The notes below the pieces were generated by a model. The model saw only the letters and a program-made list of their open reading frames with translations, was not told where the DNA came from and made no database searches. Of a stretch of 64,000 nucleotides of DNA, positions 1,433-29,440 are shown one piece after another; position 1 is the stretch's first letter, and each line of letters begins with the position of its first letter. The position numbers and the translations under genes are program-made. This DNA comes from an uncultured Ignavibacteriales bacterium (lineage in GTDB: Bacteria > Zixibacteria > MSB-5A5 > GN15 > FEB-12): NCBI GenBank assembly GCA_964544635.1, contig CAZJCK010000003.1, forward strand, positions 19,973-83,972. Direction: 5' to 3'.

Positions 1433-1439
1433 AGTTGTC

Positions 1440-5956: not shown

Positions 5957-5993
5957 GAAATATTGGCCGCTATGTGGCGGGGGCTAAAACCGG

Positions 5994-8771: not shown

Positions 8772-8778
8772 GTCTCTT

Positions 8779-9339: not shown

Positions 9340-9391
9340 GAAGCCAAGGTACAATTGGGCGGAGCGGAGGTCAAGCAGGACTGGAACGGCA

Positions 9392-11440: not shown

Positions 11441-11958
11441 CAGTGTTGTTCCCGTCGATATATCCGTCGGGCTACCGGAAACAGCAATGGAAAAATAACC
11501 ATATTTGATACAATCGAGACGCCGGCCCAGACGATCCCGGTGATGAAGCGTGGCCAGAACGGTTGAAACAGCCAGGCGTCGACAGTGTTGACCGGCAGAT
11601 AGAACAACAGGGCGGCGAGAGCGCCGAAGAGTGCGAGCTGGATGATGAGTGTGGTGTTGTTCTCGCGGTCGCGATAGGTGGCACCGAAGAGAGCTCCGAG
11701 CAGGCCGACTAAGGCGGCGCCGGTGACCTGGGCCAGCGAGATAGGCAGGGCGGCCGGGCCGTACGGGTTGAAGGTGGTCCAGAGTCCCATGCCGACGGCG
11801 CCGACGAGGAGTCCGGATGAGGGCCCCCAGAGGAAACCGGCGGTGAAAACGATGAAGAAGATCAGGTTGACGTTCGGTAGAAACGAGGTCGCCCAGGAGA
11901 AGACATAGACGAGGGCTGCAAACAGGGCAATGCGGGTCAGCCGGGCCGCGCCCGTCAT
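11440..11958 (-). CDS. Small polytopic membrane protein (ECF-transporter S-component-like)
   Basis: 172 aa with 5-6 TM segments. Stop and start are coupled to both neighbours (ATGA and TGATG junctions). Family assignment is only by general resemblance. Confidence 0.5.
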   Translation of the reverse strand: MTGAARLTRIALFAALVYVFSWATSFLPNVNLIFFIVFTAGFLWGPSSGLLVGAVGMGLWTTFNPYGPAALPISLAQVTGAALVGLLGALFGATYRDRENNTTLIIQLALFGALAALLFYLPVNTVDAWLFQPFWPRFITGIVWAGVSIVSNMVIFPLLFPVARRIYRREQH

Positions 11959-15103: not shown

Positions 15104-15172
15104 GTCCCGTGGATGTGCTTCTTAGACGTTTGACGGCGCGATTGGTTCGTTTTCCGCCCCGATACAACGAAG

Positions 15173-16099: not shown

Positions 16100-16117
16100 C
16101 GCTGCAGGTCTTTCCGT

Positions 16118-17074: not shown

Positions 17075-17080
17075 ACGGCG

Positions 17081-17935
17081 TCAGAAGGTTTCGATTTCGC
17101 CCAGTTCGAAATTGGTCAGCTCGGCGCTGATCGACCCAACCAGGACTTTGGATTTCATCTGGACCGGCATGTGCAGGCGGTCGTCGGTCAACCAGACCTT
17201 GAGCTGGCCTTCCTGCTTGAAGGCGCCAACCGACTGGAGCATCGGTTCAACGACGATGCAGTCGAAGGTACCGGCCGGAACGCTCACGGTTTCCCGTTTG
17301 TGTATCTTGACTTCCAGCGGATAAAATTTGCCGCTGTCAAAATGGTCGATATGAATCGTGGAGCCGACTGTTAAGTCCTGGGTGCGGACAAAGTAGAATG
17401 CCGACAACACGTCCTGAACATAGCGTGGCACTTCGAAGGTGTCGTTGTTGTAAAAGGCCTGCCCCTCGACCTGATCGAACCAGAACTCGCGGTCGGACTT
17501 GTAGGAACCTTCGCGAAGTATTTTCTCAAAACGCCAGCTGAACAGCCCGACAGCATCCATGATCGATTCGAGGCGATCGTCAACCTTGTAGAAAGTTGAG
17601 AAGAAACTGTTGGACTGGGCCCGGGATACGATGCGATAGGCCGGGCGGCCGTTGTACTCGACCACGTCGGCGACCTCGACGCTGGCGGTGCCGGCATTGA
17701 TGAAGCCGTAGTTGATATCGAAGGTCAACTTTTCGCCGATGCCGAAGGCGACATTGTCGATCTGACGGTTCAGTCCTGTTTCGGTCGGTGGCGAGATCGG
17801 CTCGCCAAGGGCGGGCTGAGTGAAACCGAGCCACAGGGCCACGAAGTAAAGTATCGGAATAACACCGACCATAATCAGTAACACCACTCCAAGTGAGGGC
17901 CATTTCCATCGTTCAGGCATGTTGCTTTTCGTCAA
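17081..17935 (-). CDS. DUF3108-like membrane-anchored protein
   Basis: 284 aa with an N-terminal TM. The GEKLTFDINYGFINAGTASVEV pattern resembles DUF3108. Confidence 0.5.
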   Translation of the reverse strand: MTKSNMPERWKWPSLGVVLLIMVGVIPILYFVALWLGFTQPALGEPISPPTETGLNRQIDNVAFGIGEKLTFDINYGFINAGTASVEVADVVEYNGRPAYRIVSRAQSNSFFSTFYKVDDRLESIMDAVGLFSWRFEKILREGSYKSDREFWFDQVEGQAFYNNDTFEVPRYVQDVLSAFYFVRTQDLTVGSTIHIDHFDSGKFYPLEVKIHKRETVSVPAGTFDCIVVEPMLQSVGAFKQEGQLKVWLTDDRLHMPVQMKSKVLVGSISAELTNFELGEIETF

Positions 17936-18410
17936 TCCTTTTTACAATTTCCGGCAATTGTCGCCCCAGAATCTCACCGATTTCGAGGAACGTCTGGTTG
18001 TACTGGTCGAGGGCCTGGCCAATCGGGTCCTCGACACCCTCTCCGACCGGAGAATCGTCCGGGAAGTTCTTAAACAGGAATACCTTGTGTTTCGCCTGCG
18101 GGGCCACCTTGAGGATCTCTTTCACGTGCGACGGGGTCATGCCGAAGACGATATCGGCTCGGTCGACAAGATCGCGGGTGAGCGATTGCGAGCTGTGGCC
18201 GCTCAAATCGGCGTTCCAAATCTTGACCGCCTCGGCGGCGTACCTGGTGGCCGGAAAACCGGCCGCAGCGGCGACCCCGGCCGAGATCACTTCAGACTTG
18301 CCGGGACGCTCCTTCTCGAGCAGAACGCGGAGGCCGGCCTCGGCCATGGGAGAACGGCAGGTGTTACCGGTGCAGACGAAGAGTATGACAAACGTATTAT
18401 TCTCAGTCAT
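17913..18410 (-). CDS. Low-molecular-weight protein-tyrosine/arginine phosphatase
   Basis: FVCTGNTCRSPMAE (the CX5R P-loop of LMW-PTPs). 165 aa. Confidence 0.85.
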   Translation of the reverse strand: MTENNTFVILFVCTGNTCRSPMAEAGLRVLLEKERPGKSEVISAGVAAAAGFPATRYAAEAVKIWNADLSGHSSQSLTRDLVDRADIVFGMTPSHVKEILKVAPQAKHKVFLFKNFPDDSPVGEGVEDPIGQALDQYNQTFLEIGEILGRQLPEIVKRIDEKQHA

Positions 18411-19051
18411 GTCGCTTTCAGTTCTCTGGTGATTTTTTCAATCTCCGATCGAGCGATGGCGCCTTCGCGGAGGATGCGCGGCGGGACGGCGGTGGTGTCG
18501 ATGACGGTTGAGGCCACCCGGTCGCAGGGGCCGGCATCGAGATACAGGTCGACGCTCTCGCCAAACAGGGCCTCAATTTCGGTTGCGGTGGCCGGGGTCG
18601 GTTCGTTGGAACGGTTGGCCGAGGTCGCCGAAAGCGGCAGATCAAGTGCCGAACAGATCTGTTCGATGATTGGGGCCGGCGACACCCGCAAGCCGATCCG
18701 TCCGTTCTCCGCGGGCGGTTCCGGATAGCCCGGCCGGGCGTCGATGACCAGGGTGATCGGCCCGGGCAGAAAGGCGCCCGCAAGGGCGGTGGCGGTGCTG
18801 TTCATACGGCCGAATTCGGCGAGCTGGTCGATCGATCTGGCGAAGACCGCCATCGGCATGCTGCGCGGTCGTGACTTGAGCTCGAAGATCCGTTCGATCG
18901 CAGCTTGCGAGAGGGTGTTGCACAACAGACCGTACTGGGTTTCCGTCGGCGCCACGATCACCCCTCCCCCTTTGAGGATAGCAACCGCCTCGCGAATGAT
19001 GCTTGCATCCGGACGGTCATAGCTGATCTGAATTCGCTTAGTTTCCCTCAT
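18407..19051 (-). CDS. tsaC: L-threonylcarbamoyladenylate synthase (YrdC/Sua5 family)
   Basis: 214 aa with GGVIVAPTETQYGL and SATSANRS motifs. Confidence 0.85.
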   Translation of the reverse strand: MRETKRIQISYDRPDASIIREAVAILKGGGVIVAPTETQYGLLCNTLSQAAIERIFELKSRPRSMPMAVFARSIDQLAEFGRMNSTATALAGAFLPGPITLVIDARPGYPEPPAENGRIGLRVSPAPIIEQICSALDLPLSATSANRSNEPTPATATEIEALFGESVDLYLDAGPCDRVASTVIDTTAVPPRILREGAIARSEIEKITRELKAT

Positions 19052-19685
19052 ATTCCTGAATCAGACTGTCGACCCGGGCGGGGTCGAGCAGTTCACTGCT
19101 GCCGGTGGTTTCATACAATGGGGTGGCTTCCTGAACATTGACCGTCACGGCCACCACCCAGGCATCGCGGTAACCGGCCGTCCGGGCACGCATCAGGTAG
19201 TCGTCGGCGGTATCCCGGTTGCCGAACGAACCGACGCGGACCTTGAAGTAGGGTACTTCGTACTCGAGAAAAACCGGCCGATCGAAGATCTCCTCGGCGA
19301 CGCGGACCTGGTAGCGGGCATCGCCGTATACCTTGGTCGTATACAACTGCACGCGGAAGGCCTGCGAGTTGAGGGTGTCGATGGCCGACGGCGGGATCGG
19401 GGCGAGCAGGGTGTCGACCATCAGGCTGTCGGGGATAGCGTCGCCGGTCGCCAGATCGGTCTGGCCGAGGACGACATCGCCCGGCTGGGGGTACGTTTTC
19501 GGGACAACCACACGATCGGCCTCGAGTGCCAGCGGATCAAAACGGGTCGGCGGCGCCGGTTGTTCGTCCGGTGATCGCTCTTCTTCCGGTTCATCCTGTT
19601 TGAATATCTGGCCGCACCCGGCCACCAGCGCAAAAAGCAGGAGCGTCAGCAGTGTCAGTTTATAGATAGTCGCGGTGTTTCTCAT
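19038..19685 (-). CDS. SPOR-domain lipoprotein
   Basis: Lipobox LVAGC. C-terminal FRVQLYTT...YFKVRVGSFGNRDTADDYL is a SPOR repeat. Confidence 0.75.
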   Translation of the reverse strand: MRNTATIYKLTLLTLLLFALVAGCGQIFKQDEPEEERSPDEQPAPPTRFDPLALEADRVVVPKTYPQPGDVVLGQTDLATGDAIPDSLMVDTLLAPIPPSAIDTLNSQAFRVQLYTTKVYGDARYQVRVAEEIFDRPVFLEYEVPYFKVRVGSFGNRDTADDYLMRARTAGYRDAWVVAVTVNVQEATPLYETTGSSELLDPARVDSLIQEYEGN

Positions 19686-20739
19686 CTTTGTCCAGTTGTG
19701 CGAGGAGCTTCTTGATCTCTCCCGCTTTGGTCTTGTGCGTTACCATTGTGATATCTCCGCACTGCACGACGACGAGGTCGGAGACACCGAGGCAGGCGAC
19801 GATACCGTCACCCTGATTATACACCGTCGTCTCGTAGGTGTCCTCAAAGACGACGTCACCAACGATAACATTGTTGTCGCGGTCGCGATCCATGTATCGG
19901 GAGAGGGCGTTCCAGCCGCCGATATCGTCCCAGACAATGTCAGCCTTGATCGTGAGCACGTTGTCGGCGTTTTCGAGGACGGCGAAATCGATCGAGATGG
20001 CGGTCGCCTTGTCGTACAGTTCGTTGCGGGCCTTCTGTTCATTGGCGGTGCCGATCTGCTTTTCGTATGCACTCAACAGATCACCGAGGTCGGGGTTATA
20101 CTTTTCGATGGCGCTGTAGATAGCCTTGGCCGACCAGACGAACATGCCGGAATTCCAGAGGTACTTGTGGCTGTAGTAGTAATCGTGGGCCACCTCGGCG
20201 CGCGGCTTCTCGGTAAAGGCGGCCACCTGGTGGACAACATGATCCCCCTGGTGGCGATAAGGATCACCCAGCTTGATGTAGCCGTAGCCGGTTTCGGGGC
20301 GAGTGGGGACGATGCCGATGGTGATCAGGCGGTCCTCGACGGCGGCTATGGCGGCTCCTTCTTCCAGAATCTGGCGCAGTTTGTCGGCCGGGCGAATCAG
20401 GTGGTCGGCGGAGAGGACGACCATGACGGCGTCGGGGTCGATATGACGCAGGTGGACCGCGGCCAGACCAATGGCGGCACAGGTGTTCCGCCCGACCGGC
20501 TCGGTCAGCAGGTTGTCGCCGGCGATTGACGGCATTTCTGAACGGATCATATCGGCCATCGATTCGCCGGTGACGATACGGATGCGATCCTGCGGGATGA
20601 GGGGCAGGACACGGTCGATTGTTTCCTCCAGCATGGTGCGGTCGGAAGTGAGTTTTAGAAACTGTTTGGGCCGGTTACGTCGCGACAACGGCCAGAACCG
20701 TTCGCCGCGTCCACCGGCCAAAATGACGCCATAAATCAC
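19660..20739 (-). CDS. Mannose-1-phosphate guanylyltransferase
   Basis: GVILAGGRGERFWPLSR nucleotidyltransferase motif. Start re-called to the GTG at 20739, preceded by GAAAGGAAA. The track start at 20967 adds about 75 aa of implausible sequence. Confidence 0.85.
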   Translation of the reverse strand: MIYGVILAGGRGERFWPLSRRNRPKQFLKLTSDRTMLEETIDRVLPLIPQDRIRIVTGESMADMIRSEMPSIAGDNLLTEPVGRNTCAAIGLAAVHLRHIDPDAVMVVLSADHLIRPADKLRQILEEGAAIAAVEDRLITIGIVPTRPETGYGYIKLGDPYRHQGDHVVHQVAAFTEKPRAEVAHDYYYSHKYLWNSGMFVWSAKAIYSAIEKYNPDLGDLLSAYEKQIGTANEQKARNELYDKATAISIDFAVLENADNVLTIKADIVWDDIGGWNALSRYMDRDRDNNVIVGDVVFEDTYETTVYNQGDGIVACLGVSDLVVVQCGDITMVTHKTKAGEIKKLLAQLDKDEKHRDYL

Positions 20740-20900
20740 GGATTTCCTTTCAACGTTCACCTGTAATTGCCTATAGGTACGGGAGTTAAGGTTTGCAGTC
20801 AAGTTAAAGATGGGGTCCGCCGCGGGTTTACGTCGACCCAACACGGATTTAGACCAAGCTGGTCGACGTTGTTGGGAACTGTTCGGTGGCGTCCGGCGTT

Positions 20901-20916
20901 TGTGAAGATATTCACA
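20901..20916. promoter_or_regulatory. Perfect CRP/FNR-family type palindrome TGTGA-N6-TCACA
   Basis: TGTGAagatatTCACA lies in the divergent intergenic region, 28 nt upstream of the ATG at 20944. Confidence 0.4.
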
Positions 20917-20943
20917 TAGCTTCTCGCACCTGGAGGTGTCGGC

Positions 20944-21987
20944 ATGGTAAAAAAGCAATCGAAGCATACGGCGGGACTACTAATTTCTCCGACGAAGACA
21001 GGCGCGGCGGCAACAGTCGGGGGCGGCATGTTTTTGTCGGCGGCGCTCATCTCACTGTTTGTCAGACCAATCATTGATGCACAGCCGGATGCAACCCTGC
21101 TGGCGGCGGCGCTGCTGTTCGATCTGGTGATTGCGGTGCCGGCGCTGGTCTACGCAACGCTTGTTCGGGCCGGACGGTTGCGTCCGCTCTTCCTCATTCC
21201 AATTGCTGTAGCCGGATACGCAACGGCGGCTGCGACCATGCCCGATCAGGAGGCACTGTTTGATATGGTGCGGCCGTTGGTCGGACTGGTCGAGCTGGCC
21301 ATAGTCGGCTGGTTGATCTGGCGCGTCAAACGTGGGCTTGCGGCGCATTCGGGTAGCGGCGACTTTGCAGGCAGCTTACGTGAGTCGCTGCTGCGTATGA
21401 CCGGCAACCGGGTAGCAGCGGGGATAATCGCGACCGAGGTAGCGTTGCTGTACTATGCATTGCGCTGGCCGCGACAGTCACACAGTCAAGCTGGGTTTAC
21501 GGTGCATCGAGACGCCGGATATAGCGCGGTGGTGATCGGTTTGATCGGGTTACTGGCGGTCGAAACGGCTGTCGTGCATGTCGTGTTGTTGCAATGGAGT
21601 GCAACGACAGCATGGATACTGTCAGCGCTGAGTGTGTACGCGGTAATTTGGTTTGTGGGGGATTACCGGGCACTGTCGGCACGATCGATCGTACTCACCA
21701 AAGAGGCATTGCAGCTGCACATCGGATTGCGCTGGGAGGCGACAGTTCCGTATCGACTGATCGAGACCGTCGAGACTGTGAAAGAGGCGCCGGAAGTCCT
21801 GTCGAAATCATCGCTGAAGATTGATATGATGGGGCAGGTCAATGTGCGGATAAGACTGCGCGAGACGACCGAGGTGATCGGTATGTACGGCATACGGCGT
21901 CGTGTCGATGAGATCTTGTTGCAGGTGGATGATGCGGGACGGTTTCTGGGGGAGGTGAAGGAGAATCGCGGGGCAGGTTCCTTGTGA
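20944..21987 (+). CDS. Hypothetical polytopic membrane protein with a soluble C-terminal domain
   Basis: 347 aa with several TM segments. RBS GGAGG lies 7 nt before the ATG. The stop codon lies inside a repeat-element copy. Confidence 0.5.
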   Translation: MVKKQSKHTAGLLISPTKTGAAATVGGGMFLSAALISLFVRPIIDAQPDATLLAAALLFDLVIAVPALVYATLVRAGRLRPLFLIPIAVAGYATAAATMPDQEALFDMVRPLVGLVELAIVGWLIWRVKRGLAAHSGSGDFAGSLRESLLRMTGNRVAAGIIATEVALLYYALRWPRQSHSQAGFTVHRDAGYSAVVIGLIGLLAVETAVVHVVLLQWSATTAWILSALSVYAVIWFVGDYRALSARSIVLTKEALQLHIGLRWEATVPYRLIETVETVKEAPEVLSKSSLKIDMMGQVNVRIRLRETTEVIGMYGIRRRVDEILLQVDDAGRFLGEVKENRGAGSL

Positions 21988-21994
21988 ACCTGAC
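21974..21994 (+). repeat. 5'-half copy of the CAGGTTCCTTGTGAACCTGAC repeat family
   Basis: caggttccttgtgaacctgac is an internal hairpin (CAGGT/ACCTG). The same core occurs at 22057, 28470 and 44011. Confidence 0.7.
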
Positions 21995-22016
21995 GCATAT
22001 CGCATTGACGGGCGGC

Positions 22017-22045
22017 ATGGGCCCCGACTCAAGGCCGGGGCGACA
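22017..22045 (+). repeat. Short relative of the ATGGGC...GGGGCGACA repeat family
   Basis: atgggccccgactcaaggccggggcgaca. Compare the 71-bp copies at 28575 and 29370. Confidence 0.5.
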
Positions 22046-22056
22046 AATTCATAGTT

Positions 22057-22081
22057 GCAGGTCAGGTTCCTTGTGATTCAC
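22057..22081 (+). repeat. 5'-half copy of the GCAGGTCAGGTTCCTTGTGA repeat family
   Basis: gcaggtcaggttccttgtgattcac. Confidence 0.7.
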
Positions 22082-22110
22082 ACGTGGATCGCATGGGTTC
22101 GATACTAACG

Positions 22111-22168
22111 GGCAGGCGAGGACGTCTGCCGCGCACAGGATTGGCAGACCGCAGCGTCTGCCGCACAC
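22111..22168. repeat. Two tandem GGCAG-N-GTCTGCCGC(G)CACA hairpin units just downstream of the ptb-like gene
   Basis: Units are ggcaggcgaggacgtctgccgcgcaca and ggcagaccgcagcgtctgccgcacac. The second folds as GGCAGAC/GTCTGCC (7 bp). No T-run follows. Confidence 0.5.
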
Positions 22169-22175
22169 GTCGGCC

Positions 22176-23120
22176 TTACACCAGCAGGCAGCAGACGGCG
22201 ATGGAGTTGTACAGTGCGCTCGGGTTGTCGTGGCGGGCGGCAAAGGCAACCGGGGTGCGACCGCCAACTAGCACACCGGCCGACTGCGCCTCGCCGAATG
22301 CTGTCATCGCTTTGTAAATGCCGTTCGCCGTGAAACTGTTCGGCGCGATCATCAGGTCGGTCTGGCCGGCCACTGTCGAGTCGGTTATCCCCTTGGCGGC
22401 GGCAGCCTCGCTGTCGATGGCGATGTCGAACGACAGCGGGCCATCGACGAACACGCCCTTGATCTGCCGACGGTTGTTCATTTGGGTCAGTATGGCGCCG
22501 TCGGTAGTAGCGTTCATCTGCGGATAGACAACCTCGACAGCTGCCAGGACGGCGGTGCGCGGGGTATCGACACCGAGCTTGCGGCAGACCGTGGCGGCGT
22601 TGTTGATGATCGCTACCTTGGTCATAGTGTCAGGTTGTTCGTTGACGACACCGTCGGAGACAAACAGCAGCTTCGGATACTTGTCGGCCTTGAGTATGGC
22701 AACGTGCGAGAGTACGGCTTTCTTCCCCACGAAACCGACCTCGTTGGACGATAGTGATGAAAGCATTTCCGACGAGCAGACATTGCCGCGGACAATGAAG
22801 TCGGCGGTACCGTCGTTGATCAGTTGCGCCGCCATGCGTACCGCTTCAAACGGCTGCTCCGCAGTCAGGCGCGAGGAATCGTCGGCGCTGAGTTGCGTCG
22901 CCTTGAGATATTCATCGATATCGGACTGCGAGCCGATCAGCACCGGCTTGATGAAACCATCGTTAACCGCATCAGCGAAGCCGGACAGCGACGGTGCGCT
23001 CGACGGTGCTACTATAGCGGCAGTCAGTGGTTCGGCTTTGGTACGTTCCTTTGCTTTCTCGACGATCCGGTCGAAGGAATGGGTATCGGGTAGTGACATG
23101 GTATTTGTCTGCATGGTCAT
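22176..23120 (-). CDS. Phosphate acyltransferase, PTA_PTB family (second paralogue)
   Basis: 314 aa with the same fold pattern as the upstream ptb (IVRGNV..., DGVVNEQP). 4-nt overlap with the upstream gene. Confidence 0.75.
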   Translation of the reverse strand: MTMQTNTMSLPDTHSFDRIVEKAKERTKAEPLTAAIVAPSSAPSLSGFADAVNDGFIKPVLIGSQSDIDEYLKATQLSADDSSRLTAEQPFEAVRMAAQLINDGTADFIVRGNVCSSEMLSSLSSNEVGFVGKKAVLSHVAILKADKYPKLLFVSDGVVNEQPDTMTKVAIINNAATVCRKLGVDTPRTAVLAAVEVVYPQMNATTDGAILTQMNNRRQIKGVFVDGPLSFDIAIDSEAAAAKGITDSTVAGQTDLMIAPNSFTANGIYKAMTAFGEAQSAGVLVGGRTPVAFAARHDNPSALYNSIAVCCLLV

Positions 23121-24079
23121 GCCTCCCGCTTCCAGACGTTGTGTTGCTCGTAATAGTCGGCAAGGACAGCCGAGATGGCGAGTGACGCTTTCTTGTTCTT
23201 GATCGTATCGGTACGCGAAACCAGTGAGACCGGCACCGAGGCGCCGACGATGACACCGGCAAAGATCGCGTTGGCGAACTGGATGAGCGACTTGGCGACG
23301 ATGTTGCCTTCCTCGATCGAGTTAACGAGGTAGACATCGGCATCGCCGATCACCGGTCCGGTCGCGCCCTTCAATTCGCCGGCTTCTTTCGAGGTTGCAA
23401 GATCGAGCGAGAGCGGCCCCTGGATGATGCAATCGTCGAACCTGGCCTGGGCGTCCCTGGCGAATGCCGACGCCTCCACCCCGCCGGTGACTGCGACTTT
23501 GACCGGCGACAATCCGAGGGCGCGGGCGCTTAAAAGAGCGTTCTCGAGAATCTGCATGCGTTGCTCGGTGTCGGGAGCCGGCACCATGCCGCCGTCAGTG
23601 AAGTTCAACAGCTTGTGGTAGCCGGGAATGTCGAGGACGGCGCAATGCGACAGCGTGTTGGCCTGGCGCAGGTTGTACTGTTTGTCGAGGACCGTCTTGA
23701 GGAGCGCCGAGGTGGGGATGAACCCTTTCATCATCACCTGCGCCTCGCCATCGGAGGCGAACTTGACGGCGGCGTGTGCCGCCCTCATCGGATCGACTTC
23801 GTTAACCACGCGCAGGTTGCCGATGTCGATCTTCTGTTCCGATGCGAGCTGTTCGATTTTTTCTCTATCGCCGACGAGGATGCCGTCGAGGAAGCCGTCC
23901 GCGTTGGCTTCCGCTACCGCACCGATAACGTCGGCATCCTGTGCCGCAGCGACGGCGACAGTTTTCTTGCGGCCTTCCCTGGCGACCTGGATCGCCCGTT
24001 CAATCAAAGCGTCGGCCGAGGTGATACGTTGCGACGCAATCTCGGCATCGCCGGTTGGTGTCATACGGTTCATGCTCAA
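23117..24079 (-). CDS. ptb: Phosphate butyryltransferase
   Basis: 320 aa with MMKGFIPTSALLKTVL and TDGGMVPAPD motifs. Sits next to buk. Confidence 0.8.
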   Translation of the reverse strand: MSMNRMTPTGDAEIASQRITSADALIERAIQVAREGRKKTVAVAAAQDADVIGAVAEANADGFLDGILVGDREKIEQLASEQKIDIGNLRVVNEVDPMRAAHAAVKFASDGEAQVMMKGFIPTSALLKTVLDKQYNLRQANTLSHCAVLDIPGYHKLLNFTDGGMVPAPDTEQRMQILENALLSARALGLSPVKVAVTGGVEASAFARDAQARFDDCIIQGPLSLDLATSKEAGELKGATGPVIGDADVYLVNSIEEGNIVAKSLIQFANAIFAGVIVGASVPVSLVSRTDTIKNKKASLAISAVLADYYEQHNVWKREA

Positions 24080-25143
24080 TACTCCTTGAGCTGTTCTTCG
24101 CCGGTGAGGAAGCGACGTCCGGCGGCAGCCAGCGCCTCCATTTCGTATTCGCCCGGAATGACGACAAACTCGCCGAGAAAACCGGCGTAGGTATGGATGA
24201 TGTCGACGAGCCGCTTGGAGTGGGCCATGCCGCCGGTGAGGATGATCGCCTTGTAGTCGCCCTTGAGAGCGGTGGCGGCGACAGCGATCTCCTTGGCGAT
24301 CTGGTAGCCCATGGCGGTGAAATAGAGCAGCGCTTTTTCGTCGCCGCCGTCGATTATCTCCTCCACCTTGCGAAGGTCGGCCTCGCCGAGGTAAGCAACC
24401 AGACCGGATTTCTTCGACAGCTTGTCGATCATCTCTTTCTCGGTATACTCACCGGAGTAGCAGAGTTTGACAAGACCGCCGATGGGAAGGGCGCCGGCGC
24501 GGTCGGGCGAAAACGGTCCCATCCCCAACAGGGCGTCGTTGACATCGACCACTCTGCCTTTCTCCAGCGCCGCGACCGAGACCCCGCCACCCATGTGGAC
24601 GGCGACAAAGTTGATCTCATTGAGTTTGCGTCCGCGCTTCTCGGCCTCGCGGCGGCAGACCTCCTTGATGTTGAGGGCGTGGACCCGGCACTTGCGTTCG
24701 ATTTCCGGCACGCCGGAAATCCGGGCGATGTCGGTGAAGTTGTCGACGGTGATCGGGTCGGAGATCATCGATGCTACTTTGTACCGTTCGCCCAGGTGAT
24801 GGGCGATGATACTGCCGAGATTGGAGGCATGGTTGGAGTAGACAGCGTGCCGCACGTCGTACAGGAGCTGCGGCGAGATGGTGTACGATCCGCCTTCGAG
24901 CGGCTTGAGCGGGGCGCCGCGACCGACCACCACCTTCGGTTGGTCGCCGTTGAGGTCAAGACCGTCAAGCCACCGGTTGATGCTCTCCATGCGGTAGTCG
25001 AATTGTTCGGCGACGTTGTCGAATTTGGCCAGTTCGTTGGGGTCGTGGCGGACCACTTCCTCGGACTCGATGATATCGTCGTTGAAGCAGGCTACCTTGG
25101 TCGAGGTCGAACCGGGATTGATAACGAGAATTCTGTCTCCCAC
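24076..25143 (-). CDS. buk: Butyrate (branched-chain acyl) kinase
   Basis: ILVINPGSTSTK ASKHA motif. Start re-called to the GTG at 25143, with AGGAGG 6 nt upstream. Confidence 0.9.
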   Translation of the reverse strand: MGDRILVINPGSTSTKVACFNDDIIESEEVVRHDPNELAKFDNVAEQFDYRMESINRWLDGLDLNGDQPKVVVGRGAPLKPLEGGSYTISPQLLYDVRHAVYSNHASNLGSIIAHHLGERYKVASMISDPITVDNFTDIARISGVPEIERKCRVHALNIKEVCRREAEKRGRKLNEINFVAVHMGGGVSVAALEKGRVVDVNDALLGMGPFSPDRAGALPIGGLVKLCYSGEYTEKEMIDKLSKKSGLVAYLGEADLRKVEEIIDGGDEKALLYFTAMGYQIAKEIAVAATALKGDYKAIILTGGMAHSKRLVDIIHTYAGFLGEFVVIPGEYEMEALAAAGRRFLTGEEQLKEY

Positions 25144-25153
25144 GGTTGTCCTC

Positions 25154-25756
25154 CTATGCCTCCACTTGTTCGAGCGTGGTGCCGACACCGCGTTCGAACG
25201 CCTTGAGGTTGATTTCGACGAAGCGCTCCTTGACGCGTGACTTGATCGTCTGGCTCCAGATCTCGCGCTCGAACGGCAGGTAGTTCGAGAGGGTGCCGAG
25301 CAGGATGGTGTTGACCAGACGCGGGTTGCCGAGTTCGCCGGCGATCTTGTCGGCAGGAACGTCGATAACCTTCTGCGCCTTCTTCTTCATCTGCGCGATG
25401 GCGTCGTGGGGATACGTGAATTTCTTGTTGGCGGTGACGATGGCCGGCACCAGTTTGGTTTGCGAAACGATCGCCACACCGTCCTTCTTCATCCAGTCCA
25501 TAGCGCGGAGGCCCTCGGCCGATTCGAAGGCCATGAGGACATCCACCCGGCCGTACTGGATGGTCGGGCTGTAGACCTTGGGGCCGATCTTGATGTGCGA
25601 CGAGACGATGCCGCCGCGCTGGCTCATACCGTGGACTTCGGATTTCTTGACGTCCAGCCCTGAGCGCATGGCTGCCTCGGAGATGATCTCCGAGGCGAGC
25701 AGGACACCCTGGCCGCCGACGCCGACTATCAGTATGTTGAATTCATTCTTTTCCAT
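25154..25756 (-). CDS. iorB: Indolepyruvate:ferredoxin oxidoreductase subunit beta
   Basis: 200 aa with ILIVGVGGQGVLLASEI and HGMSQRGG motifs. Confidence 0.88.
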   Translation of the reverse strand: MEKNEFNILIVGVGGQGVLLASEIISEAAMRSGLDVKKSEVHGMSQRGGIVSSHIKIGPKVYSPTIQYGRVDVLMAFESAEGLRAMDWMKKDGVAIVSQTKLVPAIVTANKKFTYPHDAIAQMKKKAQKVIDVPADKIAGELGNPRLVNTILLGTLSNYLPFEREIWSQTIKSRVKERFVEINLKAFERGVGTTLEQVEA

Positions 25757-25764
25757 GGTTGCAC

Positions 25765-27609
25765 CTATGCCTGTTCTGCCGTTTCAAAGTGACTCTTGAG
25801 GATGATCGCCTCCGGCGGGCAGATCTGCGCACAGAGCGTGCAGCCGGTACAGAGCGACGTATCGATAACCGCCTTGGGATGGCCGTGCTTGTTGGTCTCG
25901 GTCGAGGCCTCGATGGCCGGACAGGAGATGCGGAAGCAGGCGCCGCAGGCGGTGCACTTCTCGAGATCGACAACGTACGGTTCTTCCATGATCCGCTTGG
26001 GCATGAGCACGCACGGCCGTTTGGTGTGGATGACTGACGGTCCGGGAGTTTCGAGCTGTTCCTTGATGACACTGAGCACCTGGTCGTAGTCGTACGGGTC
26101 GGCCTTGACATAGTTCTTCACGCCCAGGGCGTTGACCAGCTTCTCGATGTCGATCACGCCGGCCTTTTCGCCCATCAGGGTGTAGCCGGTCGAGGGGTGC
26201 ATCTGGCCGCCGGTCATGGCGGTGGCGGAGTTGTCGAGGATGATGATGGTCACATTCGAGTGGTTGTAGATAGCGTCCATCAGACCGGTCACGCCCGAGT
26301 GCAGGAAGGTGGAGTCGCCGATGACGGCCACGGTGCCTTTCTCGGAGCCTTTCACTTTCTCCATGCCGATGGCGTTGCCGATCGACGCCCCCATGCAGAT
26401 GCAGGTGTCCATGGCGTTGAGCGGCTCCATCACGCCGAGGGTGTAGCAGCCGATGTCACCGGTGACGGCGACACCGAGTTTCTTGAGGGCCATGAAGGCG
26501 CCGCGGTGCGGACAGCCGGGACAGAGCACAGGTGGCCGCGGGAACATGTTCTCTTCGGCGAGGATTTCGGCCTGCTTGACGATGTCGATCAGGCCGGCTT
26601 CGTAAAGCCCTTCGGCAACGCGCAAGGGGTGCAACTCGCCGCGATAGCCGAAATACTTCTTTCCTTCGACTTCAATGCCGGCGGCTCGGATCTGGTCTTC
26701 GTAGAACGGTTCGAGTTCTTCGACGACGATTACGCGGTCGTGCGACTCGACGAACTGGCGAATCTTGTCTAACGGCAACGGGTAACTCATGCCGAGCTTG
26801 AAGTAGTCGAAGTCGGGGGCGACCTCCTTGGCGTACTGGTAGGCCACGCCACCGGTGATGATGCCGATCTTCGAACCGTTGTCTTCGATGACGTTGAACG
26901 GTGATTCCTCGGTGAACTTTTCGAGCCGATGGAGCCGTTCGCGCACCACCACATGGCGACCGCGGGCGTTGGACGGCACCATGACGTATTTCGACGGATC
27001 CTTGGCGAACTTGCGCTCCGGGCCGGAGTGGACGTCGCCGAGGCTGACCACGCCCTTGGAGTGCGAGATGCGGGTGGTCAGCCGGACCATGACGGGGGTG
27101 TCGAACTCCTCGGAGAGATCGTAGGCGGCGACCATCATGTCTTTGGCTTCCTGCGAGTCCGACGGTTCCAGCATCGGAATCTGGGCGAAGCGGGCGTAGA
27201 AACGGTTGTCCTGCTCGTTCTGCGACGAGTGCATTTCCGGGTCGTCGCAGGAAACCAGCACAAAGCCGCCGTTGACGCCGGTATAGGCCTGGGTCATGAA
27301 CGGATCGGCGGCGACATTGAGGCCGACATGTTTCATCGTACAGAGGGCGCGGGCGCCGCCAACTGAAGCGCCGATGGCCACTTCGTAGGCCACCTTTTCG
27401 TTGGGTGACCACTGGGAATAAATATGGCGGTAGTGAGCCGCGAGGGTCTCAAGGATTTCGGTGGACGGTGTTCCCGGGTAGGATGCGGCCAGTTTGACTC
27501 CAGCCTCATGGGCGCCCCGGGCAACCGCCTCGTTACCCGACATAAGCTCTTTTTGCATAAGTTCACCTGATGTATTTACAGACAATTTACCTTGCATAGC
27601 ACCTCCCAT
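25765..27609 (-). CDS. iorA: Indolepyruvate:ferredoxin oxidoreductase subunit alpha
   Basis: 614 aa. Has GNEAVARGA..AGV...SYPGTPSTEI, a TPP-binding region, and a C-terminal 2x4Fe-4S region (CTACGAC, CTGCTLC). The ATG at 27597 has a better RBS (GGAGGT) and may be the true start. Confidence 0.9.
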   Translation of the reverse strand: MGGAMQGKLSVNTSGELMQKELMSGNEAVARGAHEAGVKLAASYPGTPSTEILETLAAHYRHIYSQWSPNEKVAYEVAIGASVGGARALCTMKHVGLNVAADPFMTQAYTGVNGGFVLVSCDDPEMHSSQNEQDNRFYARFAQIPMLEPSDSQEAKDMMVAAYDLSEEFDTPVMVRLTTRISHSKGVVSLGDVHSGPERKFAKDPSKYVMVPSNARGRHVVVRERLHRLEKFTEESPFNVIEDNGSKIGIITGGVAYQYAKEVAPDFDYFKLGMSYPLPLDKIRQFVESHDRVIVVEELEPFYEDQIRAAGIEVEGKKYFGYRGELHPLRVAEGLYEAGLIDIVKQAEILAEENMFPRPPVLCPGCPHRGAFMALKKLGVAVTGDIGCYTLGVMEPLNAMDTCICMGASIGNAIGMEKVKGSEKGTVAVIGDSTFLHSGVTGLMDAIYNHSNVTIIILDNSATAMTGGQMHPSTGYTLMGEKAGVIDIEKLVNALGVKNYVKADPYDYDQVLSVIKEQLETPGPSVIHTKRPCVLMPKRIMEEPYVVDLEKCTACGACFRISCPAIEASTETNKHGHPKAVIDTSLCTGCTLCAQICPPEAIILKSHFETAEQA

Positions 27610-27638
27610 TGATGTGCGTTACTCCGGTTGAGAATATG

Positions 27639-27654
27639 TGTGAAATCTTTCACA
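27639..27654. promoter_or_regulatory. Perfect CRP/FNR-family type palindrome TGTGA-N6-TCACA upstream of iorA
   Basis: TGTGAaatcttTCACA lies 30-45 nt upstream of the iorA start, in the divergent intergenic region. Confidence 0.4.
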
Positions 27655-27718
27655 AAAGCAAGACCTGCAAACGGGATTTGTTGTGGCCGGATTGAGTTGG
27701 ATCAATGGACATGGATAA

Positions 27719-27747
27719 TTGACAAATATGTGGATGAATGCGATATT
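27719..27747 (+). promoter_or_regulatory. Candidate promoter for the lipoprotein gene
   Basis: TTGACA (27719..27724), a 17-nt spacer, then GATATT (27742..27747). Confidence 0.3.
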
Positions 27748-27844
27748 GAGAGCGTCTGTATGGCAGAGCGCCACGGGGCTATTCTTGAGCTGACATCGCG
27801 ATCGTGGCAGTGAATCAGGAAAACGGAATCTGGAGGGGTTTGTC

Positions 27845-28366
27845 ATGAAACGGATAAAAATTTTGGGGCTGCTGGGCGCGGTCTGCCTGGTGTGGGGATG
27901 CGGTGAGGACAAGAATGCGGACATGGCGACCACACCGACAGAAGAGCAGACGATACGCAGCTCACTCTCAGATGACAGGCTGGTTACGCGTGACCAGTTG
28001 ATTGGTACCTGGCTGGGCCAGTACATTCATATCGACCCGCATTCGAGACAACGGATGGAGTTTACGGTGAGCTTCGTTTTCAACGACACCGCCTTCTTGT
28101 ACCAGAAGGCCGAAACTGATTCTACGAACTATCACTGCCCACACGTCTACGCGTGGGGTCCGTGGGCAACTGATGGCCTGGCGCTGTGGCTGCAGAATCA
28201 TGCTTTTTACACGATGGACTGTTTCTGGTATCCGATTTCTGCTCGAAATCACCCGGTTTGGTTTGATGGCAATACGCTGATTATTCTGGAGAACGAGATT
28301 GCATATCCTGACTCGGTAGTGTCGTTTGGCTACCTCGATACATTCAGACTGGTGAGGGTGAAATGA
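27845..28366 (+). CDS. Hypothetical lipoprotein
   Basis: 173 aa with signal peptide plus lipobox LVWGC. No other motif recognised. Confidence 0.6.
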   Translation: MKRIKILGLLGAVCLVWGCGEDKNADMATTPTEEQTIRSSLSDDRLVTRDQLIGTWLGQYIHIDPHSRQRMEFTVSFVFNDTAFLYQKAETDSTNYHCPHVYAWGPWATDGLALWLQNHAFYTMDCFWYPISARNHPVWFDGNTLIILENEIAYPDSVVSFGYLDTFRLVRVK

Positions 28367-28473
28367 GAACACACGCAACCGTATTGGTAGTACTCGTCGC
28401 TGTGACGATGTCACTGTCCTGTTCGGAGAAACCGAATGAGCCGATGACGGGTGCGAAGAAATCAGTCCCGTAG
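28363..28473 (+). CDS. 36-aa lipoprotein-signal ORF, possibly a truncated gene
   Basis: Not in the track. Translates as MRTHATVLVVLVAVTMSLSCSEKPNEPMTGAKKSVP. Has an ATGA overlap with the upstream stop. Its TAG stop is the first bases of the 75-bp repeat element. Confidence 0.3.
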   Translation: MRTHATVLVVLVAVTMSLSCSEKPNEPMTGAKKSVP

Positions 28474-28544
28474 GTCAGGTTCCTTGTGAAGCTGACAGTG
28501 TATCGTCCGTTGGGCGAAGTCAGGTTGCAAGCAACCTGACCTAC
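28470..28544 (+). repeat. 75-bp MITE/REP-like element with 12-bp terminal inverted repeats
   Basis: Termini are GTAGGTCAGGTT...AACCTGACCTAC. Internal hairpins are CAGGTT..CTTGTGAAGCTGAC and TCAGGTTGCAAGCAACCTGA. A same-length homologue sits at 44011..44085. Confidence 0.7.
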
Positions 28545-28574
28545 GAACAGAGTGCGGGGACATTTTCGGCAGAG

Positions 28575-28645
28575 ATGGGCAGACTGGGCCCCAGGTGTTC
28601 GCCCCGGGGCGACAGAGAAAGAGCCCACCTGAGAGGTAGGCTACC
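28575..28645 (+). repeat. 71-bp direct repeat, left copy
   Basis: ATGGGCAGACTGGGCCCCAGGTGTTCGCCCCGGGGCGACAGAGAAAGAGCCCACCTGAGAGGTAGGCTACC. About 90 percent identical, by eye, to 29370..29440. Confidence 0.75.
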
Positions 28646-28678
28646 GTTGAGGTTTCAGTAATGTACCAATCATCTGCC

Positions 28679-28892
28679 AGTGAGTGTAGGTCGAAACTTC
28701 AAGGCCCGCAGGGCCGAAGAGTTTCGACATTGTTCTTTTAACGAATGTCGAAAGTCTGCCTGAGTCGTATGGCTAAGGTCAGAACCCACTCTCACAAACT
28801 CAATTCGTACGCGTGAATGTAGGCCAGGATGTCCTGCAGGGACTTCTGGCGTCGTTATGATTCGCAGACTCCTTTGTATCACGTATTTCCTG
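28679..28892. repeat. 214-bp structured non-coding unit, copy 1 (candidate ncRNA or mobile non-coding element)
   Basis: Identical to 28929..29142 except one base (28698 t vs 28948 c). Contains several perfect hairpins, for example GTCGAAACT/AGTTTCGAC enclosing GGCCC-GCA-GGGCC. Strand unknown. Confidence 0.7.
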
Positions 28893-28928
28893 GCGGTTGT
28901 ACGGGGTGTGGCGAGAGGAGTTTACGGA

Positions 28929-29142
28929 AGTGAGTGTAGGTCGAAACCTCAAGGCCCGCAGGGCCGAAGAGTTTCGACATTGTTCTTTTAACGAATGTCG
29001 AAAGTCTGCCTGAGTCGTATGGCTAAGGTCAGAACCCACTCTCACAAACTCAATTCGTACGCGTGAATGTAGGCCAGGATGTCCTGCAGGGACTTCTGGC
29101 GTCGTTATGATTCGCAGACTCCTTTGTATCACGTATTTCCTG
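28929..29142. repeat. 214-bp structured non-coding unit, copy 2
   Basis: Period is 250 bp (214-bp unit plus 36-bp spacer). Followed by ACTCACTGG (29148..29156), which is complementary to CCAGTGAGT (28677..28685). Confidence 0.7.
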
Positions 29143-29369
29143 ATAGTACTCACTGGATACGAAACGGTCTCTTAACTAATCGTCCGCCGAAAGCGCCGTG
29201 CAACGTGCCATTTCCGCGTTTTCAAAGAGGGGAGGACTGAGCAGAAGTAAAGACGCAGACCTCTCCGTCCGGCAGTTGCCGGATTCCGAGATCTGCGCTA
29301 CGGGACGGTCGAAGAGAATAATGGATGCCCGCCGGCGCGGGCACGACGTATGCAGCGTTCGTCGCAGGG

Positions 29370-29440
29370 ATGGGCAGACTGGGCCCCGGGGTCTTCGCCC
29401 GCGGCGACAGAGAAAGAGCCCACCTGAAAGGTAGGCGACC
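29370..29440 (+). repeat. 71-bp direct repeat, right copy
   Basis: ATGGGCAGACTGGGCCCCGGGGTCTTCGCCCGCGGCGACAGAGAAAGAGCCCACCTGAAAGGTAGGCGACC. Confidence 0.75.

What the first reader, a model, noticed from the sequence alone, without database searches (positions are those of the whole stretch)
28677..29156. Near-identical tandem pair of a 214-bp highly structured non-coding element
Units 28679..28892 and 28929..29142 differ at a single base (28698 t vs 28948 c). They are separated by a 36-bp spacer, giving a 250-bp period. That period is not a multiple of 3, and the minus-strand ORFs crossing the units change frame between copies, so a repeated protein domain is unlikely. Each unit is packed with perfect stems. 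GTCGAAACT (28690..98) pairs with AGTTTCGAC (28720..28), enclosing GGCCC-GCA-GGGCC. CGACATT-N12-AATGTCG spans 28725..28750. GCCAG...CTGGC (28823..28850) encloses GTCC-TGCAG-GGAC. The unit's 5' GTGAGTGTAGG is 9/11 complementary to CCCACTCTCAC (28785..95). The motif GTCGAAA occurs twice in direct orientation, on either side of its complement TTTCGAC. That allows two mutually exclusive helices, a switch-like arrangement. The whole array is closed by CCAGTGAGT (28677..85) pairing with ACTCACTGG (29148..56). By eye, GC content here is lower than in flanking genes. This looks like either a novel structured RNA that was recently duplicated or a non-autonomous mobile element. I do not recognise it as any known ncRNA class.
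Basis: seen in the sequence. Interest (0 to 1): 0.7.

Follow-up and report, generated by a model that had tools for sequence, protein, structure and literature searches.

The report
Young tandem repeat of hairpin-rich spacer DNA
Two almost identical copies of a 214-base, non-coding, hairpin-rich stretch really do sit side by side in a repeat-filled gap between two genes of an uncultured Zixibacteria-like bacterium. Nothing like it was found anywhere else, so it is most likely young lineage-specific repeat DNA, not a proven new RNA gene.

Summary
Units 28679-28892 and 28929-29142 are 213/214 identical, with a 36-bp spacer and a 250-bp period. All named stems exist.

The unit is non-coding:
- GC3 is 0.39, against 0.64-0.83 in real genes.
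- There is no Shine-Dalgarno sequence.
- No protein homologue turned up among 5.8 and 1.8 billion sequences.

The first 118 nt fold into a four-way junction far better than chance (z about -4.5; only 1 of 852 background windows is as extreme). They do so equally well on both strands, as DNA palindromes do.

No related sequence was found: no Rfam family and no tRNA; no match in phage, plasmid or viral collections; no exact pattern match in the GTDB or JGI collections; and no further copy in the 64 kb.

Syntenic Zixibacteria carry a multihaem cytochrome gene in this slot instead. The 1.1-kb gap is therefore lineage-specific. It also holds REP-like hairpins and a second 77-nt repeat.

Best reading (about 0.45): young, palindrome-rich repeat DNA, 1.86 copies of a 250-bp period, transcribed if at all as a passenger.

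Rivals: tandem small-RNA genes (0.25), a non-autonomous mobile element (0.12), a type I toxin-like locus (0.07), an assembly artefact (0.05).

No homologue exists, so covariation cannot be tested. Transcription is unknown.

The parts
28679..28892 (.). Repeat unit 1 (214 bp; t at 28698)
   Evidence: 213/214 identical to unit 2. GC 49%.
28893..28928 (.). 36-bp spacer present once. Together with a unit it makes the 250-bp period.
   Evidence: No source elsewhere in the window. On the + strand it can pair with the 3' tail of unit 1, but weakly (-23.2 kcal/mol, z = -1.5).
28929..29142 (.). Repeat unit 2 (214 bp; c at 28948)
28679..28796 (.). 5' domain of unit 1: a four-way junction made of a closing stem (GTGAGTGTAGG / CCCACTCTCAC) and three hairpins. 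The same domain lies in unit 2 at 28929-29046.
   Evidence: -46.8 kcal/mol (z = -4.65) on +; -45.0 kcal/mol (z = -4.42) on -; 1 of 852 background windows is as extreme. Covariance model R1 finds only these two copies.
28690..28754 (.). Three GTCGAAA half-sites (direct 28690, inverted 28722-28728, direct 28747). They give two mutually exclusive helices.
   Evidence: exact inverted repeats of 10 and 9 nt. (alternative folds within about 1 kcal/mol; the SNP switches the MFE).
28823..28850 (+). 3' hairpin GCCAGGA(T)GTCC-TGC-AGGGACTTCTGGC. The same hairpin lies in unit 2 at 29073-29100. No U-run follows it.
   Evidence: -20.4 kcal/mol on + against -13.2 on -. It is not called a terminator.
28677..28685 (.). 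Left arm of the 9-bp inverted repeat around the whole array (CCAGTGAGT)
   Evidence: It pairs with 29148-29156 only for some choices of flanks.
29148..29156 (.). Right arm of the 9-bp inverted repeat (ACTCACTGG)
28569..28645 (.). Flanking 77-nt 'A' repeat, left copy. On the - strand it reads as a hairpin plus a CT-rich tail.
   Evidence: 86-90% identical to 29364-29440. (terminator-like on the - strand).
29364..29440 (.). Flanking 77-nt 'A' repeat, right copy. A partial extra copy of its last 33 nt lies at 29443-29475.
28469..28545 (.). REP/REPIN-like long hairpin, a member of a family also found at 21971, 22060 and 44014
   Evidence: 4 copies against 0.03 expected.

Best explanation
The pair is a young, lineage-specific piece of non-coding repeat DNA. 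It is best described as 1.86 copies of a 250-bp period (214 bp shared plus 36 bp present once).

It is built from palindromic modules and lies in a fast-evolving, repeat-filled 1.1-kb gap between a lipoprotein gene and a GT39-type glycosyltransferase gene. The host is an uncultured Zixibacteria-like bacterium.

Shown:
- It is real, non-coding and strongly self-complementary on both strands.
- It has no detectable relatives.
- It sits in a slot that syntenic relatives fill with other genes.

Inferred:
- It arose by a local recombination or replication-slippage event in a gap that also shows other local duplications. An alternative origin is a fragment of a longer array.
- It has no dedicated cellular function.
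- If it is transcribed, this is as a passenger of the lipoprotein-to-glycosyltransferase intergenic transcript on the + strand. There its stable hairpins would behave like REP/BIME elements, as barriers to 3'-5' exonucleases or as partial transcription stops.
For: Real and recent:
- The units are 213/214 identical with period 250.
- An independent Logan contig ends exactly at SNP+30.

Non-coding:
- GC3 is 0.39 and GC2 0.52, against 0.64-0.83 and 0.36-0.45 in nine real genes.
- There are no Shine-Dalgarno sequences, although the genome's genes have them.
- No protein homologues were found.

Palindromic at the DNA level:
- The 118-nt domain folds equally well on both strands (-46.8 and -45.0 kcal/mol).
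- Its stems are long and perfect, 9-10 bp.

Repeat-rich, unstable neighbourhood:
- A REP-like hairpin family is present.
- A 77-nt direct repeat lies at 28569 and 29364, with a partial tandem copy at 29443.
- A 34-codon lipoprotein-signal ORF stops at the REP hairpin (note 3).

Lineage-specific:
- The syntenic Zixibacteria loci L008 and L010 carry a 629-aa multihaem cytochrome and a small gene between iorA and the GT39 gene.
- They show no similarity to the gap.

No RNA-gene signals:
- No sigma-70-like promoter and no terminator lie inside the units.
- There is no Rfam match.
Against: - The 5' domain is among the most stable folds in the window. Two near-isoenergetic alternative helices are what a functional RNA switch would look like.
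- A simple tandem duplication should give 2.0 copies of one period. The array stops after 1.86, and the 36-bp spacer has no source. At least one extra event, or import of a fragment of a longer array, must therefore be assumed.
- GC is 9 points below the genome. That could mean foreign or mobile origin.
- Long intergenic repeats that sit in tandem have turned out to be functional in E. coli, for example ibs-sib and ldr-rdl (PMC2887945).
- The absence of homologues is weak evidence. The closest sampled genomes share only about 80% identity in IorA and about 40% in the GT39 protein.
Confidence: 0.45

Rival explanations
1. Two tandem paralogous genes for a novel small or structured RNA of about 180-215 nt. 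Each would have a four-way-junction body with a bistable helix plus a 3' hairpin. They would be kept identical by recent duplication or gene conversion, like other tandem sRNA pairs.
For: - The folds are strong: z = -3.3 for the unit and -4.65 for the 5' domain.
- The alternative helices lie within 1 kcal/mol.
- The + strand is favoured overall (-73 against -64 to -70 kcal/mol; 3' hairpin -20.4 against -13.2).
- Tandem sRNA genes are a known arrangement, for example prrF1/prrF2 (PMC2851614, PMC7948967).
- It matches no Rfam family, so it would be new.
Against: - No promoter-like site lies in or just before either unit. No intrinsic terminator lies at either unit's 3' end on either strand.
- The flanks upstream of the two copies share nothing that could be a promoter.
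- The 5' domain folds equally well on both strands.
- The only substitution breaks a + strand pair (structure).
- No homologue and no covariation were found.
- The element is absent from the syntenic relatives.
Confidence: 0.25
2. A non-autonomous mobile element inserted twice, 36 bp apart, or brought in as one block. Possible models are a derivative of a transposon family that leaves no terminal inverted repeats or target duplications (IS200/IS605-PATE, IS110 or IS91-like), or a 117-bp MITE-like core with 11-nt imperfect ends plus a tail.
For: - Identity has sharp edges, with unrelated sequence on all four flanks.
- GC is 49% against 58% for the window.
- Hairpins lie near both ends and share a CCYGCAGGG core.
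- The first 117 bp are bounded by a 9/11 inverted repeat.
- The slot differs between relatives.
- REPIN-like elements exist in this genome (PMC3116915).
Against: - The 214-bp unit has no terminal inverted repeats. There is no target-site duplication. No shared tetra- or pentanucleotide lies next to the two copies: the left flanks are ..CTGCC and ..ACGGA, the right flanks GCGG.. and ATAG...
- No third copy lies in the 64 kb.
- About 60 of the window's large ORFs were scanned against Pfam. None matched a transposase, integrase or reverse transcriptase family, though about a dozen had no Pfam match at all.
- No match was found in the plasmid, phage or viral collections.
Confidence: 0.12
3. A type I toxin-antitoxin-like locus. 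Each unit would be the long structured 5' leader of a tiny hydrophobic peptide gene whose ATG lies at unit position 179. That gives 44 aa in copy 1 and 22 aa in copy 2 (MIRRLLCITYFLIVLTGYETVS), with an antisense RNA from the other strand.
For: - Tandem duplication inside one intergenic gap is a hallmark of ibs-sib, ldr-rdl and zorO-orzO (PMC2887945, PMC3919570).
- Both ORFs pass the transmembrane proxy of that paper, at least 10 of 15 residues from IVLFCMA.
- A long, highly structured leader precedes the ORF.
Against: - Such an ORF occurs by chance in 9% of shuffles and 18% of real tiles of the window.
- It has no Shine-Dalgarno sequence, although the genome's genes use one.
- The repeat identity ends after codon 12, so the two peptides differ from there on.
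- The hydrophobic run is only 11-14 residues long.
- No homologue exists among 1.84 billion representative proteins.
Confidence: 0.07
4. An assembly artefact. A single-copy element with a strain polymorphism, or a repeat from elsewhere, was threaded twice into the contig.
For: - The window comes from a metagenome-assembled contig.
- The copies differ by one SNP, as two strain alleles would.
- Short-read assemblers cannot count copies of a 250-bp period.
Against: - The unique 36-bp spacer is joined to a unit end on one side and a unit start on the other. De Bruijn assemblers do not invent sequence.
- The independent Logan contig reads through the t allele from the left flank and ends exactly 30 nt after it. 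That implies a second copy with a different left context, not a simple allele bubble.
Confidence: 0.05

Closest known systems
REP / BIME / REPIN elements (repetitive extragenic palindromes; PMC3116915, PMC3337134)
   Same: They are intergenic, non-coding, species-specific, palindromic on both strands and clustered in mosaic arrays with other repeats. A REPIN-like hairpin family lies in the same gap.
   Different: REP units are 20-40 nt, and REPINs about 70-110 nt as a single long hairpin. They are present in tens to hundreds of dispersed copies and are tied to a RAYT transposase. This unit is 214-250 bp with four distinct hairpins. Only two adjacent copies are seen, and no RAYT or Y1 transposase gene lies in the window.
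Larger structured intergenic repeats and MITEs such as ERIC/IRU, Correia (NEMIS), RUP and BOX (my own knowledge)
   Same: They are 100-250-bp non-coding, lineage-restricted elements that fold strongly when transcribed and can alter mRNA stability or termination.
   Different: Those have clear terminal inverted repeats, usually a target-site duplication, and many dispersed copies. None of these features was found here.
Tandem sRNA paralogues, e.g. PrrF1/PrrF2 of Pseudomonas aeruginosa (PMC2851614, PMC7948967)
   Same: Two near-identical non-coding units lie head to tail with a short unrelated spacer in one intergenic region.
   Different: Each PrrF copy has its own regulated promoter and terminator, and the pair is conserved across strains. 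Here no promoter, terminator, conservation or transcript evidence exists.
Tandemly duplicated type I toxin-antitoxin loci (ibs-sib, ldr-rdl, zorO-orzO; PMC2887945, PMC3919570)
   Same: Long direct repeats in tandem enlarge one intergenic region. The RNA is highly structured, and a short hydrophobic ORF lies in each copy.
   Different: The ORF here lacks a ribosome-binding site. It is cut by the repeat boundary after 12 codons, is at chance frequency and has no homologues.

Membership tests
Any curated RNA family (Rfam 15), tRNA or tmRNA | Covariance-model match at or above the gathering score, or an ARAGORN call | tested here: not met
   There were 0 matches at gathering over the window. At E <= 10 over 28300-29600 only noise appeared, at 15-18 bits against cut-offs of 35-45. 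No tRNA or tmRNA was called.
Tandem trans-acting sRNA genes (PrrF1/F2 type) | The unit is non-coding | tested here: met
   GC3/GC2 pattern. No Shine-Dalgarno sequence. No protein homologues.
Tandem trans-acting sRNA genes (PrrF1/F2 type) | Own promoter in front of each copy and an intrinsic terminator at each 3' end | tested here: not met
   The sigma-70 and terminator scans find none in or next to the units on either strand. The sequences upstream of the two copies are unrelated. Caveat: the promoter consensus of this phylum is not established.
Tandem trans-acting sRNA genes (PrrF1/F2 type) | Conserved in related genomes, with compensatory changes in stems | tested here: inconclusive
   No homologue was found in GTDB representatives, JGI metagenomes, viral contigs, phages, plasmids or nine fetched loci. 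The nearest sampled relatives are distant.
Tandem trans-acting sRNA genes (PrrF1/F2 type) | A discrete transcript is detected | not testable with these tools
   No expression data are available.
TIR-type MITE (Correia, ERIC, RUP) | Terminal inverted repeats at the ends of the repeated unit | tested here: not met
   The unit starts AGTGAGTGTAGG and ends CACGTATTTCCTG, which are not complementary. Only an internal 9/11 inverted repeat closes the first 117 bp, and a 9-bp inverted repeat brackets the whole array.
TIR-type MITE (Correia, ERIC, RUP) | Target-site duplication flanking each copy | tested here: not met
   The flanks are ..CTGCC|unit|GCGG.. and ..ACGGA|unit|ATAG...
TIR-type MITE (Correia, ERIC, RUP) | Many dispersed copies in the genome | tested here: inconclusive
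   blastn, nhmmer and the covariance model found no other copy in the 64 kb. The rest of the genome was not available.
IS200/IS605-derived PATE or REPIN | The same target tetra- or pentanucleotide immediately 5' of every copy, and a cognate Y1 transposase or RAYT | tested here: not met
   The left flanks differ, and so do the right flanks when the element is read on the other strand. About 60 of the window's large ORFs were scanned against Pfam and none matched a Y1_Tnp family, though about a dozen had no match at all. The genome outside the window was not tested.
Type I toxin-antitoxin locus | Tandem duplication in one intergenic region of a short ORF (<60 aa) with a transmembrane-like stretch (criteria of PMC2887945) | tested here: inconclusive
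   Formally met: MIRRLLCITYFL... has 11 of 15 hydrophobic residues in both copies. The same feature occurs in 9% of shuffles and 18% of real tiles.
Type I toxin-antitoxin locus | A complete toxin ORF with a ribosome-binding site inside each repeat, and homologues in other genomes | tested here: not met
   Identity ends after codon 12. No Shine-Dalgarno sequence is present. There were 0 hits among 1.84 billion proteins.
Riboswitch or cis-regulatory leader of the downstream GT39 gene | It lies in the 5' UTR directly upstream of the regulated ORF, and is conserved with that gene | tested here: not met
   Unit 2 ends 400 nt before the ATG. The only promoter-like site (29509-29537) lies between the two. 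The GT39 orthologues in L008 and L010 sit in an operon with no such element.
Large-period tandem repeat formed by local duplication | Head-to-tail copies of one period with near-identity | tested here: met
   Period 250, 1.86 copies, 99% matches. The non-integer copy number needs a second event or import of an array fragment (inference).

The most novel reading that the evidence does not exclude
The unit is a previously unseen structured regulatory RNA from an uncultured Zixibacteria lineage. It would have a 118-nt four-way-junction domain with a bistable helix, followed by a 3' hairpin. The two copies would be kept as tandem paralogues. It could act in trans, or as the switch-like leader of a tiny membrane-peptide ORF.
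Probability: 0.2. Interest if true: 0.5.

Novelty: new member of a known kind. Interest (0 to 1): 0.25.

Why it matters
If the ordinary reading holds, the pair is one more example of how intergenic gaps in little-known phyla fill with private palindromic repeats. It is useful mainly as a strain marker and as a warning for short-read assembly.

If it turned out to be transcribed as a discrete RNA, it would be a new structured RNA class from Zixibacteria, a candidate phylum with almost no known non-coding RNAs. Its pair of near-isoenergetic helices would make a tractable candidate switch.

With a single lineage and no homologues, the case cannot currently be advanced by sequence analysis alone.

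Tried and rejected
RNA families and known sequence collections:
- Rfam at gathering score and at E <= 10: nothing. ARAGORN: nothing.
- blastn of 28560-29460 against plasmids and phages: no match.

Exact-pattern scans:
- Hairpin 1 in GTDB genomes, JGI metagenomes and viral contigs: none.
- Three other unit segments in viral contigs: none.
- The core of the 77-nt flank repeat in JGI metagenomes: none.
- These scans find only near-identical copies. The window's own genome is not in those collections.

Protein route to related DNA:
- The 117-aa minus-strand ORF across the units has no homologue.
- Exact look-ups of the unit ORFs found nothing.
- GT39 relatives are at most 43% identical. Their loci (L002-L006) share no synteny and no similar DNA.
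- IorA relatives at about 80% identity gave the syntenic loci L008 and L010. These have a cytochrome gene in place of the gap.

Other searches and tests:
- A covariance model of the 5' domain found only the two units. A 16-bit hit in L007 lies in that genome's own REP-like gap and equals the score of the reverse strand, so it is noise.
- Coding readings were rejected by codon-position GC, by the lack of a Shine-Dalgarno sequence and by the lack of homologues. There is no remnant similarity to the neighbouring lipoprotein or to the relatives' cytochrome.
- A templated origin of the 36-bp spacer was not found.
- Hammerhead-like words (GUCGAAAC, CUGAGUC) were checked by eye, and the core CUGANGA is absent. 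Rfam ribozyme models gave nothing.
- A retron, DGR, CRISPR or TnpB/IscB guide-RNA reading was rejected. No scanned ORF matched a reverse transcriptase, Cas or transposase family, and there is no array.
- Calling the strand from folding energy or G-U counts is ambiguous.
- A literature search for the run accession found nothing.
Full report
OBSERVATION

Units 28679-28892 and 28929-29142 are identical at 213 of 214 positions (28698 t, 28948 c). A 36-bp spacer separates them. Tandem Repeats Finder reports period 250, 1.9 copies, 99% matches and score 921. An exhaustive k-mer scan of the unit finds exact inverted repeats of 10 nt (AATGTCGAAA/TTTCGACATT) and 9 nt (GTCGAAACT/AGTTTCGAC) that share the middle arm, and the 8-nt palindrome CCTGCAGG. 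The unit has 49% GC, against 58.4% for the window.

An independent Logan assembly of run SRR7048224 (L001) is 100% identical to 27221-28728. It ends exactly 30 nt after the SNP. That is what a k=31 graph does when two copies with different left flanks converge. So the two-copy structure is in the reads, although the true copy number could exceed two.

IS IT MORE THAN CHANCE?

As single-stranded RNA the unit folds to -73 kcal/mol on + (z = -3.3). On - it folds to -63.6 (unit 1, z = -2.0) or -69.7 (unit 2, z = -3.7). I made a background of 214-nt windows across the 64 kb. Its mean z is -0.43 with sd 1.23, and apart from the units about 2% of windows reach z <= -3. The whole unit is therefore unusual but not unique.

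The exceptional part is the first 118 nt. A closing stem (GTGAGTGTAGG/CCCACTCTCAC) encloses three hairpins to form a four-way junction. It has z = -4.65 on + and z = -4.42 on -, with 0 of 200 shuffles as stable. Only 1 of 852 background 118-nt windows reaches -4.4.

The 'switch' is thermodynamically real. Forcing either full alternative helix costs about 1 kcal/mol or less (-71.9 and -72.5, against an MFE of -73.0). The single SNP moves the unit 2 MFE to the second helix. The 9-bp helix that brackets the array forms only for some choices of flanks.

NOT CODING

- Nine real genes of the window have GC3 of 0.64-0.83 and GC2 of 0.36-0.45. The only open frame across the unit (minus strand, 70-117 aa) has GC3 of 0.39-0.47 and GC2 of 0.52-0.54, and no frame looks gene-like.
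- That ORF has no homologue among 5.8 billion proteins.
- Small ATG ORFs in the gap lack Shine-Dalgarno sequences, whereas the genome's genes have GGAGG-like ones.
- One small ORF starts at unit position 179. It reads MIRRLLCITYFLIVLTGYETVS in copy 2 and has a different 44-aa continuation in copy 1. It passes the transmembrane proxy used to find type I toxins (PMC2887945). Such an ORF appears in 9% of shuffles and 18% of real tiles, the repeat boundary cuts it after codon 12, and it has no homologue among 1.84 billion representative proteins.

NOT A KNOWN RNA, AND NO RELATIVES

- Rfam gives nothing at gathering score and only noise at E <= 10. There is no tRNA or tmRNA.
- blastn against phage and plasmid collections finds nothing.
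- Exact-pattern scans of GTDB species representatives, JGI metagenomes and IMG/VR find nothing. These scans see only near-identical copies, and the window's own genome is not in those collections.
- Within the 64 kb, blastn, nhmmer and a covariance model of the 5' domain find only the two units.

CONTEXT

The pair lies in a 1.1-kb gap. Upstream is a 173-aa lipoprotein gene (27845-28366; signal peptide with lipobox). Downstream is a GT39/ALG10-like membrane glycosyltransferase gene (29543-30751). On one side lie iorAB, ack and pta-pta; on the other lie mntP, rrf2 and sufCBD-sufS-nifU. I scanned about 60 of the window's large ORFs against Pfam. None matched a transposase, integrase, reverse transcriptase or Cas family; those with matches are housekeeping genes, and about a dozen had no match at all.

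The nearest IorA relatives (about 80% identity) are mostly labelled Zixibacteria. Two of their loci, L008 (GCA_040756055.1) and L010, share the whole gene order. Between iorA and the GT39 gene, however, they carry a 629-aa multihaem cytochrome and a small gene, all on one strand with GT39. No trace of those genes exists in the window's gap, and no trace of the gap exists in the relatives. The gap is therefore lineage-specific.

The gap is also crowded with other repeats:
- A REPIN-like long hairpin lies at 28469-28545. Its core GGTCAGGTTCCTTGTGAA recurs at 21971, 22060 and 44014 (4 copies against 0.03 expected).
- A 77-nt direct repeat lies at 28569-28645 and 29364-29440 (86-90% identical). 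A partial tandem copy follows at 29443-29475.
- A 34-codon ORF consists of a lipoprotein signal peptide and little else. It stops where the REP hairpin begins.
- The three best terminator-like hairpins in 20 kb all lie in this gap, all on the minus strand, and two of them are the 77-nt repeat. No minus-strand gene lies upstream of them, so they look like REP-type hairpins, not working terminators.

HOW THE PAIR AROSE

The edges of identity are sharp, and all four flanks are unrelated. A plain tandem duplication would give two full periods. Here the second period stops after 214 of 250 bp, and the 36-bp part has no source in the window.

The simplest description is 1.86 copies of a 250-bp period. 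That is what any segment between 250 and 500 bp cut from, or left over from, a longer array looks like (inference). The alternative is two insertions of a 214-bp element 36 bp apart. That lacks support: there are no terminal inverted repeats, no target-site duplication, no shared target motif on either strand and no further copies.

WHICH STRAND, IF RNA?

- The + strand is favoured overall, and at the 3' hairpin in particular (-20.4 against -13.2 kcal/mol).
- The 5' domain is symmetric between strands.
- The one substitution turns a U-A pair into C.A on +, but A-U into G.U on - (structure).
- The scans find no promoter-like site or terminator in or beside the units. Promoter-like sites lie before the lipoprotein gene (27719-27747) and just before the GT39 start (29509-29537).
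- If the region is transcribed, read-through from the lipoprotein gene on + is the simplest route (inference).

VERDICT

My ranking:
- Young lineage-specific palindromic repeat DNA without a dedicated function, acting at most like REP/BIME hairpins on a passenger transcript: 0.45.
- Tandem small or structured RNA genes: 0.25.
- Non-autonomous mobile element: 0.12.
- Type I toxin-like locus: 0.07.
- Assembly artefact: 0.05.
- Something else: the remainder.

The comparison with known systems (REP/REPIN, PMC3116915; prrF1/prrF2, PMC2851614; ibs-sib and ldr-rdl, PMC2887945) shows resemblance in layout. For each family, at least one defining feature that I could test failed.

Decisive data would be read-level copy counting, a search of the full MAG and sister genomes, and strand-specific transcript mapping.

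Noticed in passing
window 28469-28545, 44010-44083, 21971-21994, 22060-22077: A REP/REPIN-like family with core GGTCAGGTTCCTTGTGAA has 4 copies against 0.03 expected by chance. At 28469 and 44010 the core is paired with an inverted partner, giving a hairpin of about 77 nt. All copies lie in intergenic gaps. No RAYT or Y1 transposase gene lies in the window.
   Followed up: partly
window 28569-28645 and 29364-29440 (also 29443-29475 and 21998-22047): A 77-nt direct repeat (86-90% identical) flanks the array 795 bp apart. It has conserved blocks ATGGGCAGACTGGGCCCC and GGCGACAGAGAAAGAGCCCACCTGA around a variable GC hairpin. On the minus strand it looks like a terminator (hairpin plus CT-rich tail). 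It has a partial tandem copy and a weak third relative (nhmmer E = 0.12). It is not in Rfam, and its core has no exact match in JGI metagenomes.
   Followed up: partly
window 28364-28468 (+): A 34-codon ORF, MRTHATVLVVLVAVTMSLSCSEKPNEPMTGAKKSVP*, consists of a lipoprotein signal peptide with lipobox and only 14 further residues. It overlaps the stop of the 173-aa lipoprotein gene and ends where the REP hairpin begins. It looks like a second lipoprotein gene truncated by the repeat-rich insertion (sequence).
   Followed up: partly
window 27610-29542 versus L008 6437-8676 and L010 6434-8676: The gene order suf-rrf2-mntP-GT39 ... iorAB-ack-pta-pta-... is conserved with two Zixibacteria MAGs. Those carry a 629-aa multihaem cytochrome and a small gene where the window has a 173-aa lipoprotein gene plus the 1.1-kb repeat gap. 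This slot is a gene-replacement hotspot.
   Followed up: yes
window 29254-29297 and 29323-29344: Two further strong hairpins lie between unit 2 and the right 77-nt repeat. One is a 44-nt near-palindrome (CGCAGA..CCGGCA-GT-TGCCGG..TCTGCG). The other is the GC hairpin GCCCGCCGGCGCGGGC. Both read as terminator-like on the minus strand only, yet no minus-strand gene lies upstream.
   Followed up: no
L007 14369-15228: The relative GCA_964557855.1 has its own, unrelated set of palindromic repeats (e.g. GGCAGGTCTGAAGCAGATCTGCCCTACAA, twice). They lie in the gap that corresponds to window 21987-22176. This suggests that private REP-like families are common in this group.
   Followed up: no
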